Shown: positions 38,535 to 43,505, counted from the stretch's first letter. The stretch: DNA of 64,000 bases from an uncultured Actinomycetes bacterium (GCA_963718605.1 OY970363.1:1262150-1326149), one strand, 5' to 3'. The notes: generated by a model not told the origin, from the sequence alone. Numbers and translations are program-made.

Positions 38535-39077
38535 ATGCCTCTACGCGCGCTCACGGTCTATTGCGGGTCGAGCATGGGCGCCGACGCCCGTCACCGCGAC
38601 ACCGCGGCTGTGCTCGGGGCGGCGCTCGCGTTCAACGACATCGAACTCGTCTACGGCGGCGGACACGTCGGCTTGATGGGTGTCGTCGCCGACGCGGCAC
38701 TGGCGAACGGCGGACGGGTCACCGGCGTGATCACGCAGTCGCTGCTGTACGCCGAGGTCGGCCACGGCAACGTCACCGAACTGATCACGGTCGACACGAT
38801 GCACGAGCGCAAGCTGCTGATGAGCGAGCGCGCCGACGCATTCGTAATGCTTCCCGGCGGTTACGGGACGCTCGACGAATTCTTCGAAGCGGTCACGTGG
38901 ACGCAACTCGGCATCCACGCCAAGCCGTGCACCGTGCTCGATCCGACCGGTTACTACGACGGGCTCATGGAGTTCGTCGACCGGTCCGTCGACGCCGGAT
39001 TCGTCAGCGCGAAAAACCGCGCGTTGATTACGCGCTTCGCGTCCGTCGACGAACTACTTGGCGCGCTTCAAGCCTGA
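38535..39077 (+). CDS. LOG family (Rossmann-fold, TIGR00730-like) protein
   Basis: VYCGSS, YGGGHVGLMG, MHERK, PGGYGTLDE. Confidence 0.92.
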   Translation: MPLRALTVYCGSSMGADARHRDTAAVLGAALAFNDIELVYGGGHVGLMGVVADAALANGGRVTGVITQSLLYAEVGHGNVTELITVDTMHERKLLMSERADAFVMLPGGYGTLDEFFEAVTWTQLGIHAKPCTVLDPTGYYDGLMEFVDRSVDAGFVSAKNRALITRFASVDELLGALQA

Positions 39078-40538
39078 GAGGTCGCGCTTGACGACCACGT
39101 TGCGGTCCGAGGCGTTGCCGAACGAGTAGGTGGGCCACGTGCCGAAAACCTCGGGGCGGCTGCGTTCGGTCCATTCTTGCGCCGCGAGATCCCGGTATTT
39201 GTAGAAGTTCATCGCATAACCGCCCTCGTGAATACGCACGAGCGAGAAGCCGCCCGGATACTCCTTGGCTGCCGCGACCTCCTGGAACATCACGCGCGGC
39301 GCCGCCAGAGACACGGCGCGCTTGTTGCGGTGCGTGTGCCCGGCGTGATGCAAGAACACGCCCGCCGCCTGCTTGTACCAAGCGGTGAGTTGCTTGGCCT
39401 GTGCCGGCTTCATGCCATACGCCACCGGCGGTACAGCATTCGACGTTGCGTCGAGCACCACGGGATGATGGCCGAACACGAGGGTCGGCCGGTCTTTGTC
39501 CTTGAACAGCTCGCGGCCGATGAAGGTCATTTGGGCGCCGCTGAGCTTGCTGTCTCGGCCGGCGCCCGTCGTGTCGTACGTGTCGATGCCGATGATGCGC
39601 ATGCCGAACTTCTCGGTGGCGAACCATGCGGGCGCGCCCGGGTCGAACGTGTCGTGAAAACAGTCGTGGAGCGTGTCGCTATGCGGATAGCGCGAACACC
39701 CCTTCGTCGTGTCGCCCGCGTGGGGGCGATCATGGTTGCCGCGCGCCACGAAGTAGTCGCTGCGATGGGTGCCGAACTGGTCGAGGAAGTGCTTCGCGCT
39801 GTGCACGTCGACTTGGGCGGCCTCGCTCGATATGTCACCGGCGGCCAGCAAGACGTTGGCGCCGCGCTCGCGGGTTTCGCGTGCCAGCGCCGCCGCCATG
39901 ATCTCGGGATACGGACGCTTGCCGGGCTCTTGCTCGATGCCCGGCGGGAGGCCAATGCCCTGCTGCGTGGTGATCAGTCCGGCGGTTTTCTCACCGAGGT
40001 GCAGGTCGTTGCACAACGCGATCGTGAACAGGTGACGACCCTCGGGTGGCTGCGGCGTCGTGAACACGAGCGACGACGGCCCCACGTGCAACGCCGACGT
40101 TCCGACCGGTCCGCTCACGCTCGAGATAGTGGGCAGTGCAACCACACCATTGGACTTCGCCACGCATACGTAGGTCTGGCCCGGCTCAAGCCCGCGGATC
40201 TCGACGTAGTGATACGGCGAGGCCTTCGTGTCGTGATGGATCGGGCGGGGTGCGCTACCGAGCGGGGACAACAGCACCTCGGTATCGGCGGGCATCGGGG
40301 CAAGGCGGCCGAACTGATCGGGGCGCGTCGGGTCGCCGGTGAACCACGTGATGATCGCGGACGTCTCGGTCACCGTGACCAGCTCGAGGTTGATCGGCAA
40401 CGCCGGGTTGCCGGCGACGCTGCGCGTCAACCCGTACGCCCGCGGCACGTCCACCAAGTTCGCGACGACCGGTGTCGCGGCCACGAGCGCGCTCCACTGC
40501 AAGAGCTGGCGACGCGTGAAGTGACAGCAGGGGCGCAT
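39054..40538 (-). CDS. Tat-exported metallophosphoesterase with an N-terminal Fn3/purple-acid-phosphatase-like domain
   Basis: TRRQLL twin-arginine signal; NDLH, AGDI, RGNHD, HHP, GHTH. Confidence 0.85.
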   Translation of the reverse strand: MRPCCHFTRRQLLQWSALVAATPVVANLVDVPRAYGLTRSVAGNPALPINLELVTVTETSAIITWFTGDPTRPDQFGRLAPMPADTEVLLSPLGSAPRPIHHDTKASPYHYVEIRGLEPGQTYVCVAKSNGVVALPTISSVSGPVGTSALHVGPSSLVFTTPQPPEGRHLFTIALCNDLHLGEKTAGLITTQQGIGLPPGIEQEPGKRPYPEIMAAALARETRERGANVLLAAGDISSEAAQVDVHSAKHFLDQFGTHRSDYFVARGNHDRPHAGDTTKGCSRYPHSDTLHDCFHDTFDPGAPAWFATEKFGMRIIGIDTYDTTGAGRDSKLSGAQMTFIGRELFKDKDRPTLVFGHHPVVLDATSNAVPPVAYGMKPAQAKQLTAWYKQAAGVFLHHAGHTHRNKRAVSLAAPRVMFQEVAAAKEYPGGFSLVRIHEGGYAMNFYKYRDLAAQEWTERSRPEVFGTWPTYSFGNASDRNVVVKRDLSGLKRAK

Positions 40539-40551
40539 AGGGGAAGGAGAG

Positions 40552-41400
40552 TTAGACCGGGACCCCGCCGCGCAGCACAGGAAACTGGCGATCGGGGTTG
40601 TCACATTCTTCGCTGCCGGTCGGCTCTGCACCTGCCTGCCAGTCGCCCAGCACGCGCTGCATGCCCACTCGCCCGTATTGCACGATGTACGCCTTGCGCG
40701 GCTCGTCGGTCAGGTTGGGCCCGGTCTGATGGGGCGTAAGGGACGAGAACACCACCGCCCCACCCGCGGGCACTTCGGCCGGGACTGCGCCCTCGACCTC
40801 GTCGAGGCATTGCCAGCCGATCGGGTCAACCCAGCGGTGCAGCATCGTGCCGTGCCGGAAGGCGCCGGGCAGCACCCACGGGCAGCCGTTGTCAACGGTC
40901 GCGCCGTTCAATGACACCCAGCACGTGAGGTAGTGCTGCGGGTTCGTGAACGTGTAGCCGGTGTCCTGATGCCACGGAAACGCGCGCGGCTTCTCGGGCT
41001 TCTTGTAGACCGCCTGGTCCCAATAGAGGTTCACGTCGGGTCCCAACAGTTCGTTGCACAGGCCGACGAGCTTGGGGTGCTTCACAAACTGCTTGGCGGC
41101 GTCGCTCCGCATCACGCAGTGCGCCGTGAAGGTGATCGCGCCGGATTCGGCGATGTTGAAGCGACCGTCCTCCTGCTTCTGAAGGAAACGGTCCATCTTG
41201 GCCTCGAGGGCGTCGAGCTCGGCGACGACGGGTGCCAGTTCGGCGGCGGTCGCGATGTCAGGCACCACCACGAAGCCGTCGCGCGCGAAGTGTGCGCGCT
41301 GCGCGTCAGTGAGTACCGAAGGCGCGGCCGCGGGCAACTCGAACGAGAACCCGTCGTTCCATGGATGAATTTCGGCCCCAGCCGGCAGCGTCGCTGTCAC
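40552..41400 (-). CDS. PhyH-family Fe/2OG dioxygenase (second copy)
   Basis: FARDGFVV, YKKP..FPWHQD, WVSL..NGC, TPHQTGPN; start taken at GTG 41400. Confidence 0.88.
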   Translation of the reverse strand: MTATLPAGAEIHPWNDGFSFELPAAAPSVLTDAQRAHFARDGFVVVPDIATAAELAPVVAELDALEAKMDRFLQKQEDGRFNIAESGAITFTAHCVMRSDAAKQFVKHPKLVGLCNELLGPDVNLYWDQAVYKKPEKPRAFPWHQDTGYTFTNPQHYLTCWVSLNGATVDNGCPWVLPGAFRHGTMLHRWVDPIGWQCLDEVEGAVPAEVPAGGAVVFSSLTPHQTGPNLTDEPRKAYIVQYGRVGMQRVLGDWQAGAEPTGSEECDNPDRQFPVLRGGVPV

Positions 41401-41414
41401 AGATACCCAGGGTA

Positions 41415-42230
41415 TTAGACGGCCCAGTGCGAACGCAGGTGGCCCACGACCCACTCGCAGATGTCGTCGAGATCGGCGGTGCCCGCGGGTGCGTACGGCG
41501 GCGGACCGAACTCGGGCACGACCGTCAACACGTCGGCCTCGCTCGCGCTCCTGATCTGGTCCCAGAAACCGACGAACGCGTTGAGTGCGGGCTCGGCTTC
41601 GGCCGCGCGCGGGTCGGCGACCTGGGGCATCTCGGGCGTGCCGATGCGCGCGTCGATATGCAAGGTGCGCGGCGCGCACCGTTCGAGGATGTCGCCTTCC
41701 CACTCGAGATAACGCTCAGCGACCAACACGTAATGGCTGTAGTCCGACGCGAGCCAGATGTCGGGGAAGCGATCGAGCACGCGGGCTGCCACCCAGGGGC
41801 TGTAAAGGATGCAACCGCGATGCGATTCGTGTGCGAAGCGAAGACCCGAGTCGGCTTCGAGACTCGCGCTGGCATTGAAGTACTCGTCGATCTGGGCGTC
41901 GGTGAAGTTGTCGGCGCCGCTCTGCACGATCACGTGTGGCGTGGCGAAGGCGTGGCTGAGGTCGACGGTGCGCTTGACGAAGTCGAGGTGCGCGTCAACG
42001 GTGCGCCCGAACGTGTGGGCCCGCGCCAGGAACTTCAACCCATGGTCTTCGATGACCGAACGAGCTTCGTCGACGCGGTCGCCGAACATGAGCGGATTGG
42101 TCTCGACGCCGACGTAGCCGCGGCGAACCGTTTCGGCGCAGATCTCGGGCAGCGTCGACACGTCGCCGGTGAACGGGCCCCACAGCGAGCGAAAGAAGTC
42201 GACCCGTCCCCCAGAACTCATGAGCGGCAT
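41415..42230 (-). CDS. Xylose-isomerase-like TIM-barrel (sugar phosphate isomerase/epimerase family)
   Basis: GYVGVE, HESHR, DYSHY, HIDARIG, PQVADP, PEFGPPPY. Confidence 0.8.
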   Translation of the reverse strand: MPLMSSGGRVDFFRSLWGPFTGDVSTLPEICAETVRRGYVGVETNPLMFGDRVDEARSVIEDHGLKFLARAHTFGRTVDAHLDFVKRTVDLSHAFATPHVIVQSGADNFTDAQIDEYFNASASLEADSGLRFAHESHRGCILYSPWVAARVLDRFPDIWLASDYSHYVLVAERYLEWEGDILERCAPRTLHIDARIGTPEMPQVADPRAAEAEPALNAFVGFWDQIRSASEADVLTVVPEFGPPPYAPAGTADLDDICEWVVGHLRSHWAV

Positions 42231-42242
42231 CTTGCCGGAAAA

Positions 42243-42275
42243 TGAAAAAGGGCTGCGGCTTGCGCCGCAGCCCTT
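42243..42275 (-). terminator. Rho-independent terminator after the downstream VTLPT-repeat gene (42294..42728)
   Basis: 12-bp stem AAGGGCTGCGGC / GCCGCAGCCCTT with a GCAA loop on the minus strand, followed by a U-run. Confidence 0.85.
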
Positions 42276-42293
42276 CTCAAAATCGGTGTGCTG

Positions 42294-42728
42294 TTACGGA
42301 CAGAAGACGAGGGCCGACTGCGACTCGGTGGTGCAGCTCTGCCAAGACGTGCTGGTCGTCGGGTAACCCGGGAACCCGATGGCCGGGATCGGCGGGATCA
42401 CGATGGTGGGCAGCGTCACCGTCGGAAGGGTCACCGTCGGCAGCGTGACCGTCGGCAGCGTGATCGGCGGGAGCGTGACGTTCGGCAGGGTCGGTACCGG
42501 GATGCACGGAATCGAGAGATTCGGGGCCGGGATCGAGGGCAGCGTCGGCAAGTTCGGGATGAACTTGGCGCGGACCGAGTCGTCGTTGAACGTGCTCGTG
42601 GTCGAACAGAAGGTCTTGGCCTTGACCGACTTCGCCGGAGCGCCGTTAAACGGAGCGGCCCCGCTGGCGATCAGAAAGGCCGCGCTGGCGGCCCCAACCG
42701 TGACAAGAACTGGCTTTAGAAAACGCAT
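42294..42728 (-). CDS. Secreted Pro/Thr-rich xTLPx pentapeptide-repeat protein, paralog A (144 aa)
   Basis: Signal peptide MRFLKPVLVTVGAASAAFLIA; 6 xTLPx units (42405-42494); 4 Cys; TAGCTT -10 six nt upstream of the ATG; own terminator. Confidence 0.85.
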   Translation of the reverse strand: MRFLKPVLVTVGAASAAFLIASGAAPFNGAPAKSVKAKTFCSTTSTFNDDSVRAKFIPNLPTLPSIPAPNLSIPCIPVPTLPNVTLPPITLPTVTLPTVTLPTVTLPTIVIPPIPAIGFPGYPTTSTSWQSCTTESQSALVFCP

Positions 42729-42769
42729 GCGGGGAAGCTAGCAGCGGCACGCGCCTTTTCGCCGAACCC

Positions 42770-42810
42770 AAAACGAAAACGAAAAGAGCCCCGGCCGAAG
42801 CCGGGGCTCT
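42770..42810 (-). terminator. Rho-independent terminator between the two repeat-protein paralogs
   Basis: 11-bp stem AGAGCCCCGGC / GCCGGGGCTCT with a UUCG loop on the minus strand, followed by TTTCGTTTT. Confidence 0.88.
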
Positions 42811-42828
42811 CTCGAAAGATCAGCCTGG

Positions 42829-43230
42829 CTAGCAGACAGCGGCAGATTGGCCGACGCAGGGATCCGGTTCGGGGTATCCGGGGAATCCGATCGCCGGGAT
42901 CGGCGGGATCACGATGGTGGGCAGCGTGACGGTCGGCAGGGTCACCGTCGGCAGCGTCACGGTCGGCAGCGTGACCGTGGGCAGCGTGACGCTCGGCAGC
43001 GTGGGCGCCGGGATGCAAGGAATGGTCGGCAGCACGGGAACCGGAATCGTCGGCAGGGTCGGCAGGGAAAGATTTGCCTTCGGCTTCGCCGCCGCCGCAG
43101 GAGTAGGGCAGAACGTCTTGGCGGTTGACTTGGCGGGCGTCGGGTTCAGTGGCGCACCCGGGTTCGCAATGATGAAGGCCGCAGCCGCGGCACCAACGGT
43201 CACCAGGACCGGCTTAAAGAAACGACGCAT
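42829..43230 (-). CDS. Secreted Pro/Thr-rich xTLPx pentapeptide-repeat protein, paralog B (133 aa)
   Basis: MRRFFKPVLVTVGAAAAAFIIA signal; PTLPS plus 5x VTLPT (42916-43005); 4 Cys; GGGGAG SD. Confidence 0.85.
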   Translation of the reverse strand: MRRFFKPVLVTVGAAAAAFIIANPGAPLNPTPAKSTAKTFCPTPAAAAKPKANLSLPTLPTIPVPVLPTIPCIPAPTLPSVTLPTVTLPTVTLPTVTLPTVTLPTIVIPPIPAIGFPGYPEPDPCVGQSAAVC

Positions 43231-43326
43231 GTGTAGAAATCTCCCCGAAGTAAGCAAGCAAGCTTGAATTGCGGCGGAACCATAGCAACGCGGTTCAAAA
43301 AACCCAAGAAGTGCGTTCGGGCGACT

Positions 43327-43348
43327 CGTCACACCCCCTGGGCATACT
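43327..43348 (+). promoter_or_regulatory. Degenerate RecA-NDp (PafBC-type) promoter upstream of rpsF-ssb
   Basis: CGTCAC-ACCCCCTGGG-CATACT, 10-nt spacer. Confidence 0.4.
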
Positions 43349-43505
43349 CGTCGAGGTGCGGTTGTGCCTCGCGTCGAGTACCATCGCCTGTCCCCTGAAG
43401 GAGGCCTCACGGCCGACTTGGGGGGCTAACTGAATATCCCACCTGCTCCACCAACTCGGTGGGGCCCCGCGCCGAAGGGCCGGGTCCAGAGGAGGTAAAC
43501 CGCGT

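What the first reader, a model, noticed from the sequence alone, without database searches (positions are those of the whole stretch)
42294..43230. Tandem paralogous secreted proteins made of a Pro-periodic xTLPx pentapeptide rod clamped by four cysteines
Seen: two genes of 133 and 144 aa, each a separate transcription unit with its own strong terminator (UUCG and GCAA tetraloops). One has an SD; the other looks leaderless. Both share the signal peptide KPVLVTVGAA, KTFC, IPC, exactly six xTLPx units, the invariant IVIPPIPAIGFPGYP and two C-terminal Cys. Third codon positions vary between repeats (GTC/GTG, ACG/ACC, CCC/CCG), so selection acts on the peptide and not on a DNA repeat. Unit number is conserved between paralogs while the flanks diverge, implying a fixed rod length. 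I do not recognise the family. Inference: an undescribed secreted structural or surface protein pair, possibly a polyproline-II or self-assembling hydrophobin/chaplin-like coat, with a regular Thr array suited to actinobacterial O-mannosylation or to ice/mineral binding. The position beside the rpsF operon and the dedicated terminators suggest high expression.
Basis: partly seen in the sequence, partly recalled or inferred. Interest (0 to 1): 0.7.

Follow-up and report, generated by a model that had tools for sequence, protein, structure and literature searches.

The report
Orphan secreted proline-repeat protein pair
Two neighbouring genes of an uncultured actinobacterium encode small exported proteins built from a stiff, proline-punctuated five-residue repeat. 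They belong to a tiny, unnamed, fast-changing family found only in this genus, so they are real but most likely an ordinary, dispensable surface or cell-wall protein rather than a precisely built rod.

Summary
Two minus-strand genes (42294..42728, 144 aa; 42829..43230, 133 aa) are 70% identical. Each has an export signal, four Cys, six contiguous xTLPx units and IVIPPIPAIGFPGYP. Each has its own strong terminator and a conserved extended -10 element, and the downstream gene looks leaderless. Orthologue dN/dS is about 0.15, and 0.04-0.09 in the repeat block, so both are real, selected genes.

No Pfam, NCBIfam or PDB family matches. About 25 relatives exist in billions of proteins, none annotated. 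Wherever their context could be read, the relatives lie divergent from rpsF. Only 3 of 401 genomes of the order carry the family, all in one genus.

The "fixed rod clamped by four cysteines" reading fails:
- Unit number ranges from about 1 to 16.
- Some members carry acidic IEIPE units or no repeats at all.
- Copy number is 0-3, and the closest relatives lack the genes.
- Only the first Cys pair is family-wide.

AlphaFold2 gives an extended chain with no tertiary fold, so a beta-solenoid is unlikely.

Best reading: a Sec-exported, disulfide-looped, extended Pro/Thr-rich envelope or surface protein that evolves quickly. Its function is untested. Interest is modest.

The parts
42829..43230 (-). 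Gene B, 133 aa. Layout: signal peptide residues 1-33 (43132..43230); basic stretch with Cys41; Pro-rich loop to Cys72 (IPC); six xTLPx units; IVIPPIPAIGFPGYP; then Cys125-x7-Cys133.
   Evidence: dN/dS against its orthologue in L015 is 0.15.
42294..42728 (-). Gene A, 144 aa, paralogue of B at 70% identity. Signal peptide is residues 1-32 (42633..42728). Cys at 41, 75, 132 and 143.
   Evidence: dN/dS against its orthologue in L015 is 0.16.
42916..43005 (-). Six contiguous pentapeptide units of gene B (PTLPS followed by VTLPT x5), residues 76-105.
   Evidence: TRF period 15, score 120-139. Codon table shows synonymous variation among units.
42405..42494 (-). Six contiguous pentapeptide units of gene A (PTLPN, VTLPP, ITLPT, VTLPT x3), residues 79-108.
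   Evidence: TRF period 15/30, score 74-105. Codon table.
42782..42813 (-). Intrinsic terminator of gene B: a 14-bp stem, UUCG loop and U-tract.
   Evidence: -28.9 kcal/mol, z -4.1. The same hairpin is conserved in L015 and L017.
42240..42279 (-). Intrinsic terminator of gene A: GGGCUGCGGC-GCAA-GCCGCAGCCC followed by UUUUUCAUUUU.
   Evidence: -32.1 kcal/mol, z -7.2; sequence.
43279..43307 (-). Candidate promoter of gene B: -35 TTGGGT (43307..43302), a 17-nt spacer, then extended -10 TGC-TATGGT (43287..43279). The SD GGGGAG lies at 43246..43241.
   Evidence: The block GTTGCTAnnnT..CGCCGCAAT is conserved in 5 of 6 related loci. The promoter reading is an inference; the consensus scan did not call it.
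42735..42743 (-). Candidate extended -10 of gene A (TGC-TAGCTT), ending 6 nt before the ATG. This would give a leaderless transcript.
   Evidence: Conserved in L015 (TGCTAACTT) and L017 (TGCTACTGT) in front of the downstream paralogue. No SD is present.

Best explanation
The two genes are tandem paralogues of a genus-restricted orphan family of small exported envelope or surface proteins in an uncultured actinobacterium. Earlier notes call it Acidimicrobiia-type.

Proposed architecture and steps:
- The N-terminus is a Sec-type signal: MRRF(L/F)K, then a 16-residue Ala/Val/Gly-rich hydrophobic core, then a conserved xPA site at about residue 33.
- Signal peptidase I probably removes it, leaving a mature chain of about 100 residues.
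- Outside the cell, Cys1 (KTFC) and Cys2 (IPC) close a Pro-rich loop, and Cys3/Cys4 close a small C-terminal loop.
- Between the loops lies an uncharged run of V/I-T-L-P-T units. Pro at every fifth residue plus beta-branched residues keep this run extended (PPII- or beta-like) and prevent it from folding.
- The roughly 65-residue uncharged stretch would be about 20 nm long at the textbook 0.31-0.34 nm per residue for extended chains (my own estimate, not measured on the models).
- It would therefore act as a stiff, non-globular spacer or bristle in or on the cell wall, possibly O-glycosylated on Thr next to Pro.

Length, charge and copy number are free to vary between species, and the gene is dispensable. 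That fits an exposed, rapidly evolving surface component rather than a molecular ruler.

Shown here: gene reality, purifying selection, family limits, architecture, and the absence of a predicted tertiary fold.
Inferred: export route, cleavage site, disulfide pairing, extended rod, envelope location.
Unknown: the biological role.
For: Genes are real and selected:
- dN/dS is 0.15-0.16 overall and 0.04-0.09 in the repeat block.
- Unit codons differ synonymously.
- Terminators and -10 elements are conserved in related loci.

Export signal:
- Residues M1, R3, K6, A14 and A17 are invariant; R2, F4, P7, P27 and A33 are nearly invariant.
- AlphaFold2 models only residues 7-21 as a helix.

Cysteines:
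- All 26 family members have an even number of Cys in the mature part (2, 4 or 6).
- Cys1 is invariant and Cys2 nearly invariant.

Extended, non-globular chain:
- Two AlphaFold2 runs gave pTM 0.13 and 0.16 and no strands.
- Local pLDDT in the repeats was 64-75 and 72-86.
- Foldseek found no PDB match.

Fast-evolving and dispensable:
- Unit number runs from 1 to 16 and net charge from -33 to +3.
- Related loci carry 1-3 tandem copies.
- The genes are absent from the two closest species, whose RpsF is 94% and 93% identical.
- Only 3 of 401 genomes of the order carry the family.

Taxon: the host is an actinobacterium, with six WhiB genes.

Similar PhixPhiPx units occur in larger proteins outside their recognisable domains, for example beside a C-terminal SPOR domain.
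Against: - No experiment or transcript data exist.
- No signal-peptide predictor was available. The conserved RRFLK resembles a Tat motif lacking one residue, and the helix could be an uncleaved anchor.
- AlphaFold2 alignments were shallow (13-16 sequences), so failure to fold is weak evidence.
- IVIPPIPAIGFPGYP is conserved more strictly than a passive spacer needs, which hints at a specific interaction.
- Glycosylation capacity is unproven. Only a weak generic GT-C/PMT_2 hit was found.
- VKOR is absent, and DsbA/DsbB could not be checked.
Confidence: 0.6

Rival explanations
1. The N-terminal helix is an uncleaved signal-anchor. The protein then stays in the membrane and projects a Pro-rich stalk through the wall. 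The architecture would resemble the spacers of TonB/TolA or the N-terminally anchored MmpS proteins, with the conserved GFPGYP/Cys-loop tip as the interacting end.
For: - The n-region is unusually conserved (MRRFLKP).
- The stretch between the hydrophobic core and the putative cleavage site is long, about 11 residues.
- A marginal profile match to the MmpS5 N-terminal TM region was found, E 0.011.
- The tip motif IVIPPIPAIGFPGYP is conserved in a subset of members.
Against: - The xPA site at about residue 33 is nearly invariant and fits the signal peptidase I -3/-1 rule.
- The MmpS5 match is not significant and covers only the hydrophobic segment.
- Many members lack the tip motif or the C-terminal Cys loop.
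Confidence: 0.22
2. The pentapeptides fold into a beta-solenoid capped by disulfides. This would be either a pentapeptide-repeat (Rfr-type) quadrilateral helix or a 15-residue-per-turn triangular helix displaying T-V-T (TxT) arrays, able to bind ice, mineral or DNA-like surfaces.
For: - The family profile hits the VDLPN/ADLGN repeats of P0017 at E 2.8e-30. Pfam calls those repeats Pentapeptide, at 148 bits.
- V-T-L-P-T has Leu at the centre position, and T-V-T recurs every five residues (sequence).
Against: - The window proteins match no Pentapeptide model even at E <= 10.
- Both AlphaFold2 runs, including a 15-unit relative, gave no strands and pTM <= 0.16.
- Relatives have as few as 1-4 units or acidic IEIPE units.
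- Pro in every unit removes a backbone NH from the ladder (inference).
Confidence: 0.05
3. The mature protein is a self-assembling hydrophobic coat, functionally like chaplins, rodlins or hydrophobins, which lowers surface tension or makes the cell surface hydrophobic.
For: - The mature proteins of the window are hydrophobic, with GRAVY +0.34 to +0.59.
- About 65 consecutive residues carry no charge (read from the sequence).
- They are small, secreted, Cys-containing, and occur as multiple paralogues.
Against: - No chaplin or hydrophobin Pfam match.
- A 5-residue period gives no constant hydrophobic face in a beta-strand or PPII helix (inference).
- Relatives are strongly acidic or hydrophilic, with net charge down to -33 and GRAVY down to -0.28, so hydrophobicity is not a family property.
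- Frequent Pro disfavours amyloid.
Confidence: 0.08
4. The ORFs are not functional genes: chance open frames in GC-rich repeat DNA, or decaying remnants.
For: - Several overlapping frames on both strands are open.
- The genes are absent from most congeners.
Against: - Purifying selection acts in two orthologue pairs.
- The signal peptide and Cys are conserved across about 25 relatives.
- Terminators lie directly after both stops with U-tracts on the minus strand.
- The position next to rpsF is conserved.
Confidence: 0.02

Closest known systems
Pentapeptide repeat proteins (Pfam PF00805/PF13599; Rfr fold, e.g. MfpA, Qnr)
   Same: Both have a five-residue period with Leu at the central position. 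The family profile cross-hits a bona fide Pentapeptide-positive protein.
   Different: The window proteins match no Pentapeptide model. Every unit has Pro at i+1, and Val/Thr replace the usual Ala/Asp-Asn. No beta-helix is predicted. These proteins are exported, whereas the named examples (MfpA, Qnr) are cytoplasmic (from memory).
Pro/Thr-rich extended segments of actinobacterial exported proteins (PT linkers of Cellulomonas/Streptomyces glycoside hydrolases; O-mannosylated Apa-type antigens of mycobacteria). Comparison from general knowledge.
   Same: Both are Sec-exported, have Thr adjacent to Pro, adopt an extended non-globular conformation, and vary in length between relatives.
   Different: Here the repeat is the whole protein rather than a linker between domains. 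The unit is a regular pentapeptide with two large hydrophobic residues. It is flanked by conserved Cys pairs. No clear Pmt orthologue was found.
Pro-rich periplasm-spanning spacers of TonB/TolA
   Same: Both combine an N-terminal hydrophobic helix with a stiff Pro-periodic rod of variable length.
   Different: There is no C-terminal folded domain and no ExbBD/TolQR context. The host is presumed monoderm, as expected of the phylum (not tested here). The repeat is uncharged, unlike the (EP)n(KP)n of TonB.
Periaxin/AHNAK-type PhixPhiPx repeats of vertebrates, and similar basic KLPKxKLP repeats in bacterial SPOR-domain proteins
   Same: The abstract unit is the same: hydrophobic-x-hydrophobic-Pro-x. 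The profile hits a PDZ-headed 1343-aa protein at E 2e-27 and a SPOR-domain protein.
   Different: The resemblance is limited to the repeat and is most likely convergent low-complexity similarity. Calling the PDZ protein periaxin is my own recollection and was not tested.
Chaplins (PF03777) and fungal hydrophobins
   Same: Both are small, secreted, Cys-containing, multi-paralogue proteins of Actinobacteria or fungi with hydrophobic mature parts.
   Different: There is no domain match, no amphipathic periodicity, and no 8-Cys pattern. Hydrophobicity is not conserved in the family.

Membership tests
Pentapeptide repeat family (PF00805 and relatives) | Significant match to the Pfam Pentapeptide HMMs | tested here: not met
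   hmmscan at E <= 10 returned only fn2 and MotA_N noise hits for both proteins.
Pentapeptide repeat family (PF00805 and relatives) | Right-handed quadrilateral beta-helix, four units per coil | tested here: not met
   AlphaFold2 gave no strands and pTM 0.13 and 0.16, including for a 15-unit relative. The alignments were shallow, so this is moderate evidence.
Pentapeptide repeat family (PF00805 and relatives) | Consensus A(D/N)LXX, with a small residue at i-2 and a polar D/N at i-1 | tested here: not met
   The units read V/I-T-L-P-T/P/N/S. Only the central Leu agrees.
Sec-dependent exported proteins with a signal peptidase I site | Tripartite n/h/c signal with small residues at -3 and -1 | tested here: met
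   MRRFFK, then PVLVTVGAAAAAFIIA, then NPGAPLNPTPA|K. A33 is nearly invariant and A-P-A is the commonest site across 26 members. This was judged by eye; no predictor was available and no experiment was done.
Tat substrates | Twin-arginine motif (S/T)-R-R-x-F-L-K | tested here: inconclusive
   The family motif is M-R-R-F-L-K-P, which has RR and FLK but lacks the x residue. Gene A and P0161 have a single Arg (MRFLKP).
Bacterial lipoproteins | Lipobox L-[AS]-[GA]-C at the end of the h-region | tested here: not met
   Cys41 is preceded by K-T-F and lies about 19 residues after the hydrophobic core.
Sortase-anchored surface proteins | C-terminal LPXTG followed by a hydrophobic segment and a basic tail | tested here: not met
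   The C-termini end in ...CVGQSAAVC and ...SALVFCP. The internal LPT motifs are never followed by G or a TM segment.
Chaplins / hydrophobins | Chaplin domain (PF03777) or the eight-Cys hydrophobin pattern | tested here: not met
   No Pfam match. Members have four Cys, or 2 or 6 in relatives.
Actinobacterial O-mannosylated exported proteins | Host encodes a Pmt-type protein O-mannosyltransferase, and the protein carries hexoses on Thr/Ser | tested here: inconclusive
   Only one GT-C protein was found, with weak PMT/PMT_2 matches (35-45 bits) and no equivalog in NCBIfam. The modification itself is not testable here.
Disulfide-bonded exported proteins | Even, conserved Cys in the mature part, and an oxidising machinery in the host | tested here: inconclusive
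   The Cys count is even in 26 of 26 members. VKOR is absent.

The most novel reading that the evidence does not exclude
The family is a new class of bacterial wall protein, analogous to plant extensins. It would be a disulfide-looped, glycosylated, stiff PPII rod whose length is tuned by gain and loss of pentapeptide units (1-16) and by gene copy number (0-3). This would set the thickness or spacing of an outer surface layer in Acidimicrobiia and vary under phage or grazer pressure. The conserved IVIPPIPAIGFPGYP tip would be the contact for a partner or for self-assembly.
Probability: 0.15. Interest if true: 0.55.

Novelty: new variant of a known kind. Interest (0 to 1): 0.3.

Why it matters
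Almost nothing is known about the cell envelope of Acidimicrobiia, which are abundant in soils, waters and wastewater but rarely cultured. A family-specific, length-variable, Pro-periodic exported protein would be a handle on that surface. It is also a clean natural series, 1-16 units with neutral or acidic variants, for studying how PhixPhiPx repeats behave physically. Beyond that it is one of many lineage-restricted, repetitive secreted proteins. Nothing here points to a new mechanism.

Tried and rejected
- **Family and structure searches.** Pfam, NCBIfam and PDB sequence searches gave no family, with single proteins or the 26-member profile. The best PDB hits, ApoB-100 (E 0.005) and the MmpS5 N-terminal helix (E 0.011), are compositional.
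- **Fold search.** Foldseek on the AlphaFold2 model found nothing.
- **Genome-contig scans.** Two scans, one with the family alignment and one with the neighbouring TIM-barrel protein, returned nothing.
- **Literature.** A motif search (VTLPT and variants) gave only unrelated hits. A keyword search gave nothing specific.
- **Rfam.** The locus gave only sub-threshold hits on the terminator hairpins.
- **Earlier findings.** Searches by sequence and by words found nothing.
- **Gene conversion between paralogues.** dS in the repeat block between A and B (0.42) is far below the flanks (>1). With only two codons used per residue this is near the expected ceiling, so the test is inconclusive.
- **RiPP or bacteriocin precursor.** Considered, not tested: no modification genes were recognised among the four neighbours scanned, and the N-terminus looks like a Sec-type signal rather than a leader peptide.
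- **Modification by the neighbouring PhyH dioxygenase (prolyl hydroxylation).** Considered. PhyH occurs without the family genes (G009). The family gene also occurs without the TIM barrel (L018), and strong terminators separate the units.
- **Expression.** The look-up of sequencing runs found no run.

Full report
**1. What is in the sequence**

Two ORFs lie on the minus strand at 42294..42728 (gene A, 144 aa) and 42829..43230 (gene B, 133 aa). They are 70% identical over 123 residues, E 6e-41. Both begin M(R)RF(L/F)KPVLVTVGAA. Both then carry:
- KTFC (Cys41);
- a Pro-rich stretch ending in IPC (Cys75 in A, Cys72 in B);
- six contiguous xTLPx units (A residues 79-108, B residues 76-105);
- the identical IVIPPIPAIGFPGYP;
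- two C-terminal Cys.

Tandem Repeats Finder reports the 15-nt periodicity. Codon tables show that units encoding the same peptide differ at third positions. The stated features are therefore all present.

**2. They are real genes**

A metagenomic contig (L015) carries the same pair in the same order. Its first gene is 88% identical to B and its second is about 90% identical to A over the N-terminal part.

| Comparison | dN/dS overall | dN/dS in repeat + IVIPP block |
|---|---|---|
| A vs orthologue | 0.16 | 0.04-0.09 (range across both pairs) |
| B vs orthologue | 0.15 | 0.04-0.09 (range across both pairs) |

GC3 is 0.83, like the neighbouring genes. A tree of the non-repeat part pairs A with the second L015 gene (support 97/93) and B with the first (94/92). 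The duplication therefore predates the split of those two organisms. A more distant locus (L017) has three copies that cluster apart, so duplication recurs.

**3. Transcription signals**

- The hairpin after gene B (42813..42782, UUCG loop) folds at -28.9 kcal/mol, z -4.1.
- The hairpin after gene A (about 42279..42240, GCAA loop) folds at -32.1 kcal/mol, z -7.2.
- Both are followed by U-tracts on the minus strand.
- The inter-paralogue hairpin is conserved in L015 and L017.

Upstream of gene B, the block GTTGCTAnnnT..CGCCGCAAT is conserved in five of six related loci. I read it as an extended -10 (TGC-TATGGT, 43287..43279), with TTGGGT 17 nt upstream and GGGGAG 10 nt before the ATG. In front of gene A the same kind of element (TGC-TAGCTT) ends 6 nt before the ATG. 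No SD is present, and the element is conserved in L015 and L017. This fits a leaderless mRNA, a class reported to be common in Actinobacteria (general knowledge). These are sequence inferences. The simple consensus scan called no promoter, and no RNA data could be obtained.

**4. Family and distribution**

Pfam, NCBIfam and PDB sequence searches find no family.
- A word-seeded search of 5.8 billion proteins found 12 proteins, counting the query itself. All are 133-196 aa and none is annotated beyond "hypothetical protein".
- An exhaustive profile search of 1.84 billion representatives found about 14 full-length members. Many larger proteins matched only in the repeat.
- A search seeded with a repeat-free member found only two more.
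- The own genome has only these two copies.
- Among 401 genomes of the same order (215 genera), only three carry the family, all of the same genus.

The host is an actinobacterium, with six WhiB genes. Earlier notes of this scan call it Acidimicrobiia/Acidimicrobiales. That fits, but I did not test it beyond the phylum.

**5. Conserved position, variable content**

In the eight related loci whose context I read, the genes are transcribed divergently from rpsF, upstream of one or more of a xylose-isomerase-like TIM barrel, PhyH and metallophosphoesterase genes. One of these contigs (L016) ends before rpsF, so there only the downstream side is seen. Copy number is 1, 2 or 3.

The two species with the most similar RpsF (94% and 93% identity) lack the family:
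- One has rpsF directly facing PhyH.
- The other has rpsF directly facing the metallophosphoesterase gene.

The genes are therefore dispensable, and the locus is prone to insertions and deletions.

**6. What is conserved and what is not**

Across 26 members the invariant or nearly invariant features are:
- the N-terminal MRRxxKP;
- the Ala-rich hydrophobic core;
- a (F/L)(N/D)xAPA|AK site at about residue 33;
- Cys1;
- an LPTLPxIP stretch;
- Cys2.

Everything after Cys2 varies:
- Unit count runs from about 1 to 16. The G008 protein of 206 aa has about 12 units before Cys2 and 5 after it.
- Units can be acidic, as in the IEIPE units of P0026 (net charge -33).
- Units can be replaced by a charged segment plus a Thr-rich tail, as in P0035, P0041 and P0160.
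- The C-terminal Cys pair is missing in four members.
- The Cys count in the mature part is even in all 26.

Because some members have only Cys1 and Cys2, the parsimonious pairing is C1-C2 and C3-C4. That gives two local loops flanking the repeats, not a clamp across a rod. The constant six units in this pair reflect close relationship or local constraint, not a family rule.

**7. Structure**

| Model | Units | Mean pLDDT | pTM | pLDDT in repeats |
|---|---|---|---|---|
| Gene B | 6 | 58 | 0.13 | 64-75 |
| L017 relative | 15 | 63 | 0.16 | 72-86 |

In both models only the signal helix has secondary structure, and there are no strands. Foldseek finds no PDB analogue. Moderate local confidence without tertiary contacts fits a stiff extended chain.

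The profile does cross-hit a protein (P0017) whose VDLPN/ADLGN repeats Pfam calls Pentapeptide, at 148 bits. The window proteins themselves do not match those models. I rate a solenoid at about 5%.

A period of five residues cannot give a constant face in a beta-strand (period 2) or a PPII helix (period 3). Hydrophobicity is also not conserved in the family. Both points argue against a chaplin- or hydrophobin-like amphiphile.

**8. Mechanism proposed**

The best-supported reading has these steps:
- Sec export, with cleavage near residue 33.
- Oxidation into two loops.
- An uncharged segment of about 65 residues held extended by Pro at every fifth residue and by beta-branched residues. Its length would be about 20 nm by my own estimate from 0.31-0.34 nm per residue.
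- The product sits in or on the wall as a spacer or bristle, possibly O-glycosylated.

The variable length, charge, copy number and presence are typical of exposed surface components. The main rival is an uncleaved membrane anchor with a wall-spanning stalk.

Glycosylation capacity is unproven: only a weak generic GT-C was found. VKOR is absent.

Codon usage prefers CCG, CTG and ACG, unlike the adjacent ribosomal genes, which prefer CCC, CTC and ACC. It therefore gives no support for very high expression. The sample is small.

**9. Verdict**

The family is undescribed and confined to one genus plus metagenomic relatives. The specific ideas of a fixed-length, four-Cys-clamped rod, an ice binder or a hydrophobin are not supported. 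This is a new, lineage-restricted variant of a familiar kind, the repetitive Pro/Thr-rich exported protein. Interest is modest.

Noticed in passing
window 43350-43505 (+): The rpsF 5' leader is conserved in six related loci. RNAalifold places the rpsF SD (GAGGAGG) in the outer pairs of a helix with CCACCU. Seven pairs show compensatory changes. No Rfam family matches, either at gathering threshold or at E <= 1. This is a candidate S6:S18-type autoregulatory leader for this lineage.
   Followed up: partly
window 43327-43350 (+): The block GTCACACCCC..GGCATACTC upstream of rpsF-ssb is conserved in the related loci that retain this part of the spacer. It belongs to rpsF, not to gene B.
   Followed up: partly
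window 42221-42240 (-): The TIM-barrel gene (41415..42230) starts only about 7 nt after the U-tract of gene A's strong terminator. Its expression therefore needs terminator read-through or a promoter inside the 3' end of gene A.
   Followed up: no
L020 (G009) and L021 (G002), upstream of rpsF: The interval between rpsF and the Tat-signal metallophosphoesterase is indel-prone within the genus. G009 lacks the family genes and the TIM barrel. G002 additionally lacks PhyH.
   Followed up: partly
window 39054-40631 (-): The 525-aa metallophosphoesterase carries a twin-arginine signal (TRRQLLQWSALVAATPVVA). An N-terminal beta-rich part precedes the Metallophos domain. The listed GTG start is probably too far upstream.
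   Followed up: no
proteins P0014, P0021, P0033, P0037, P0040: PhixPhiPx pentapeptide arrays (neutral, acidic or basic) occur in many unrelated large proteins, including one with a C-terminal SPOR domain. Apart from Pfam Pentapeptide matches in two of the ten proteins scanned (P0017 above threshold, P0033 below), no Pfam model captures the repeat.
   Followed up: partly
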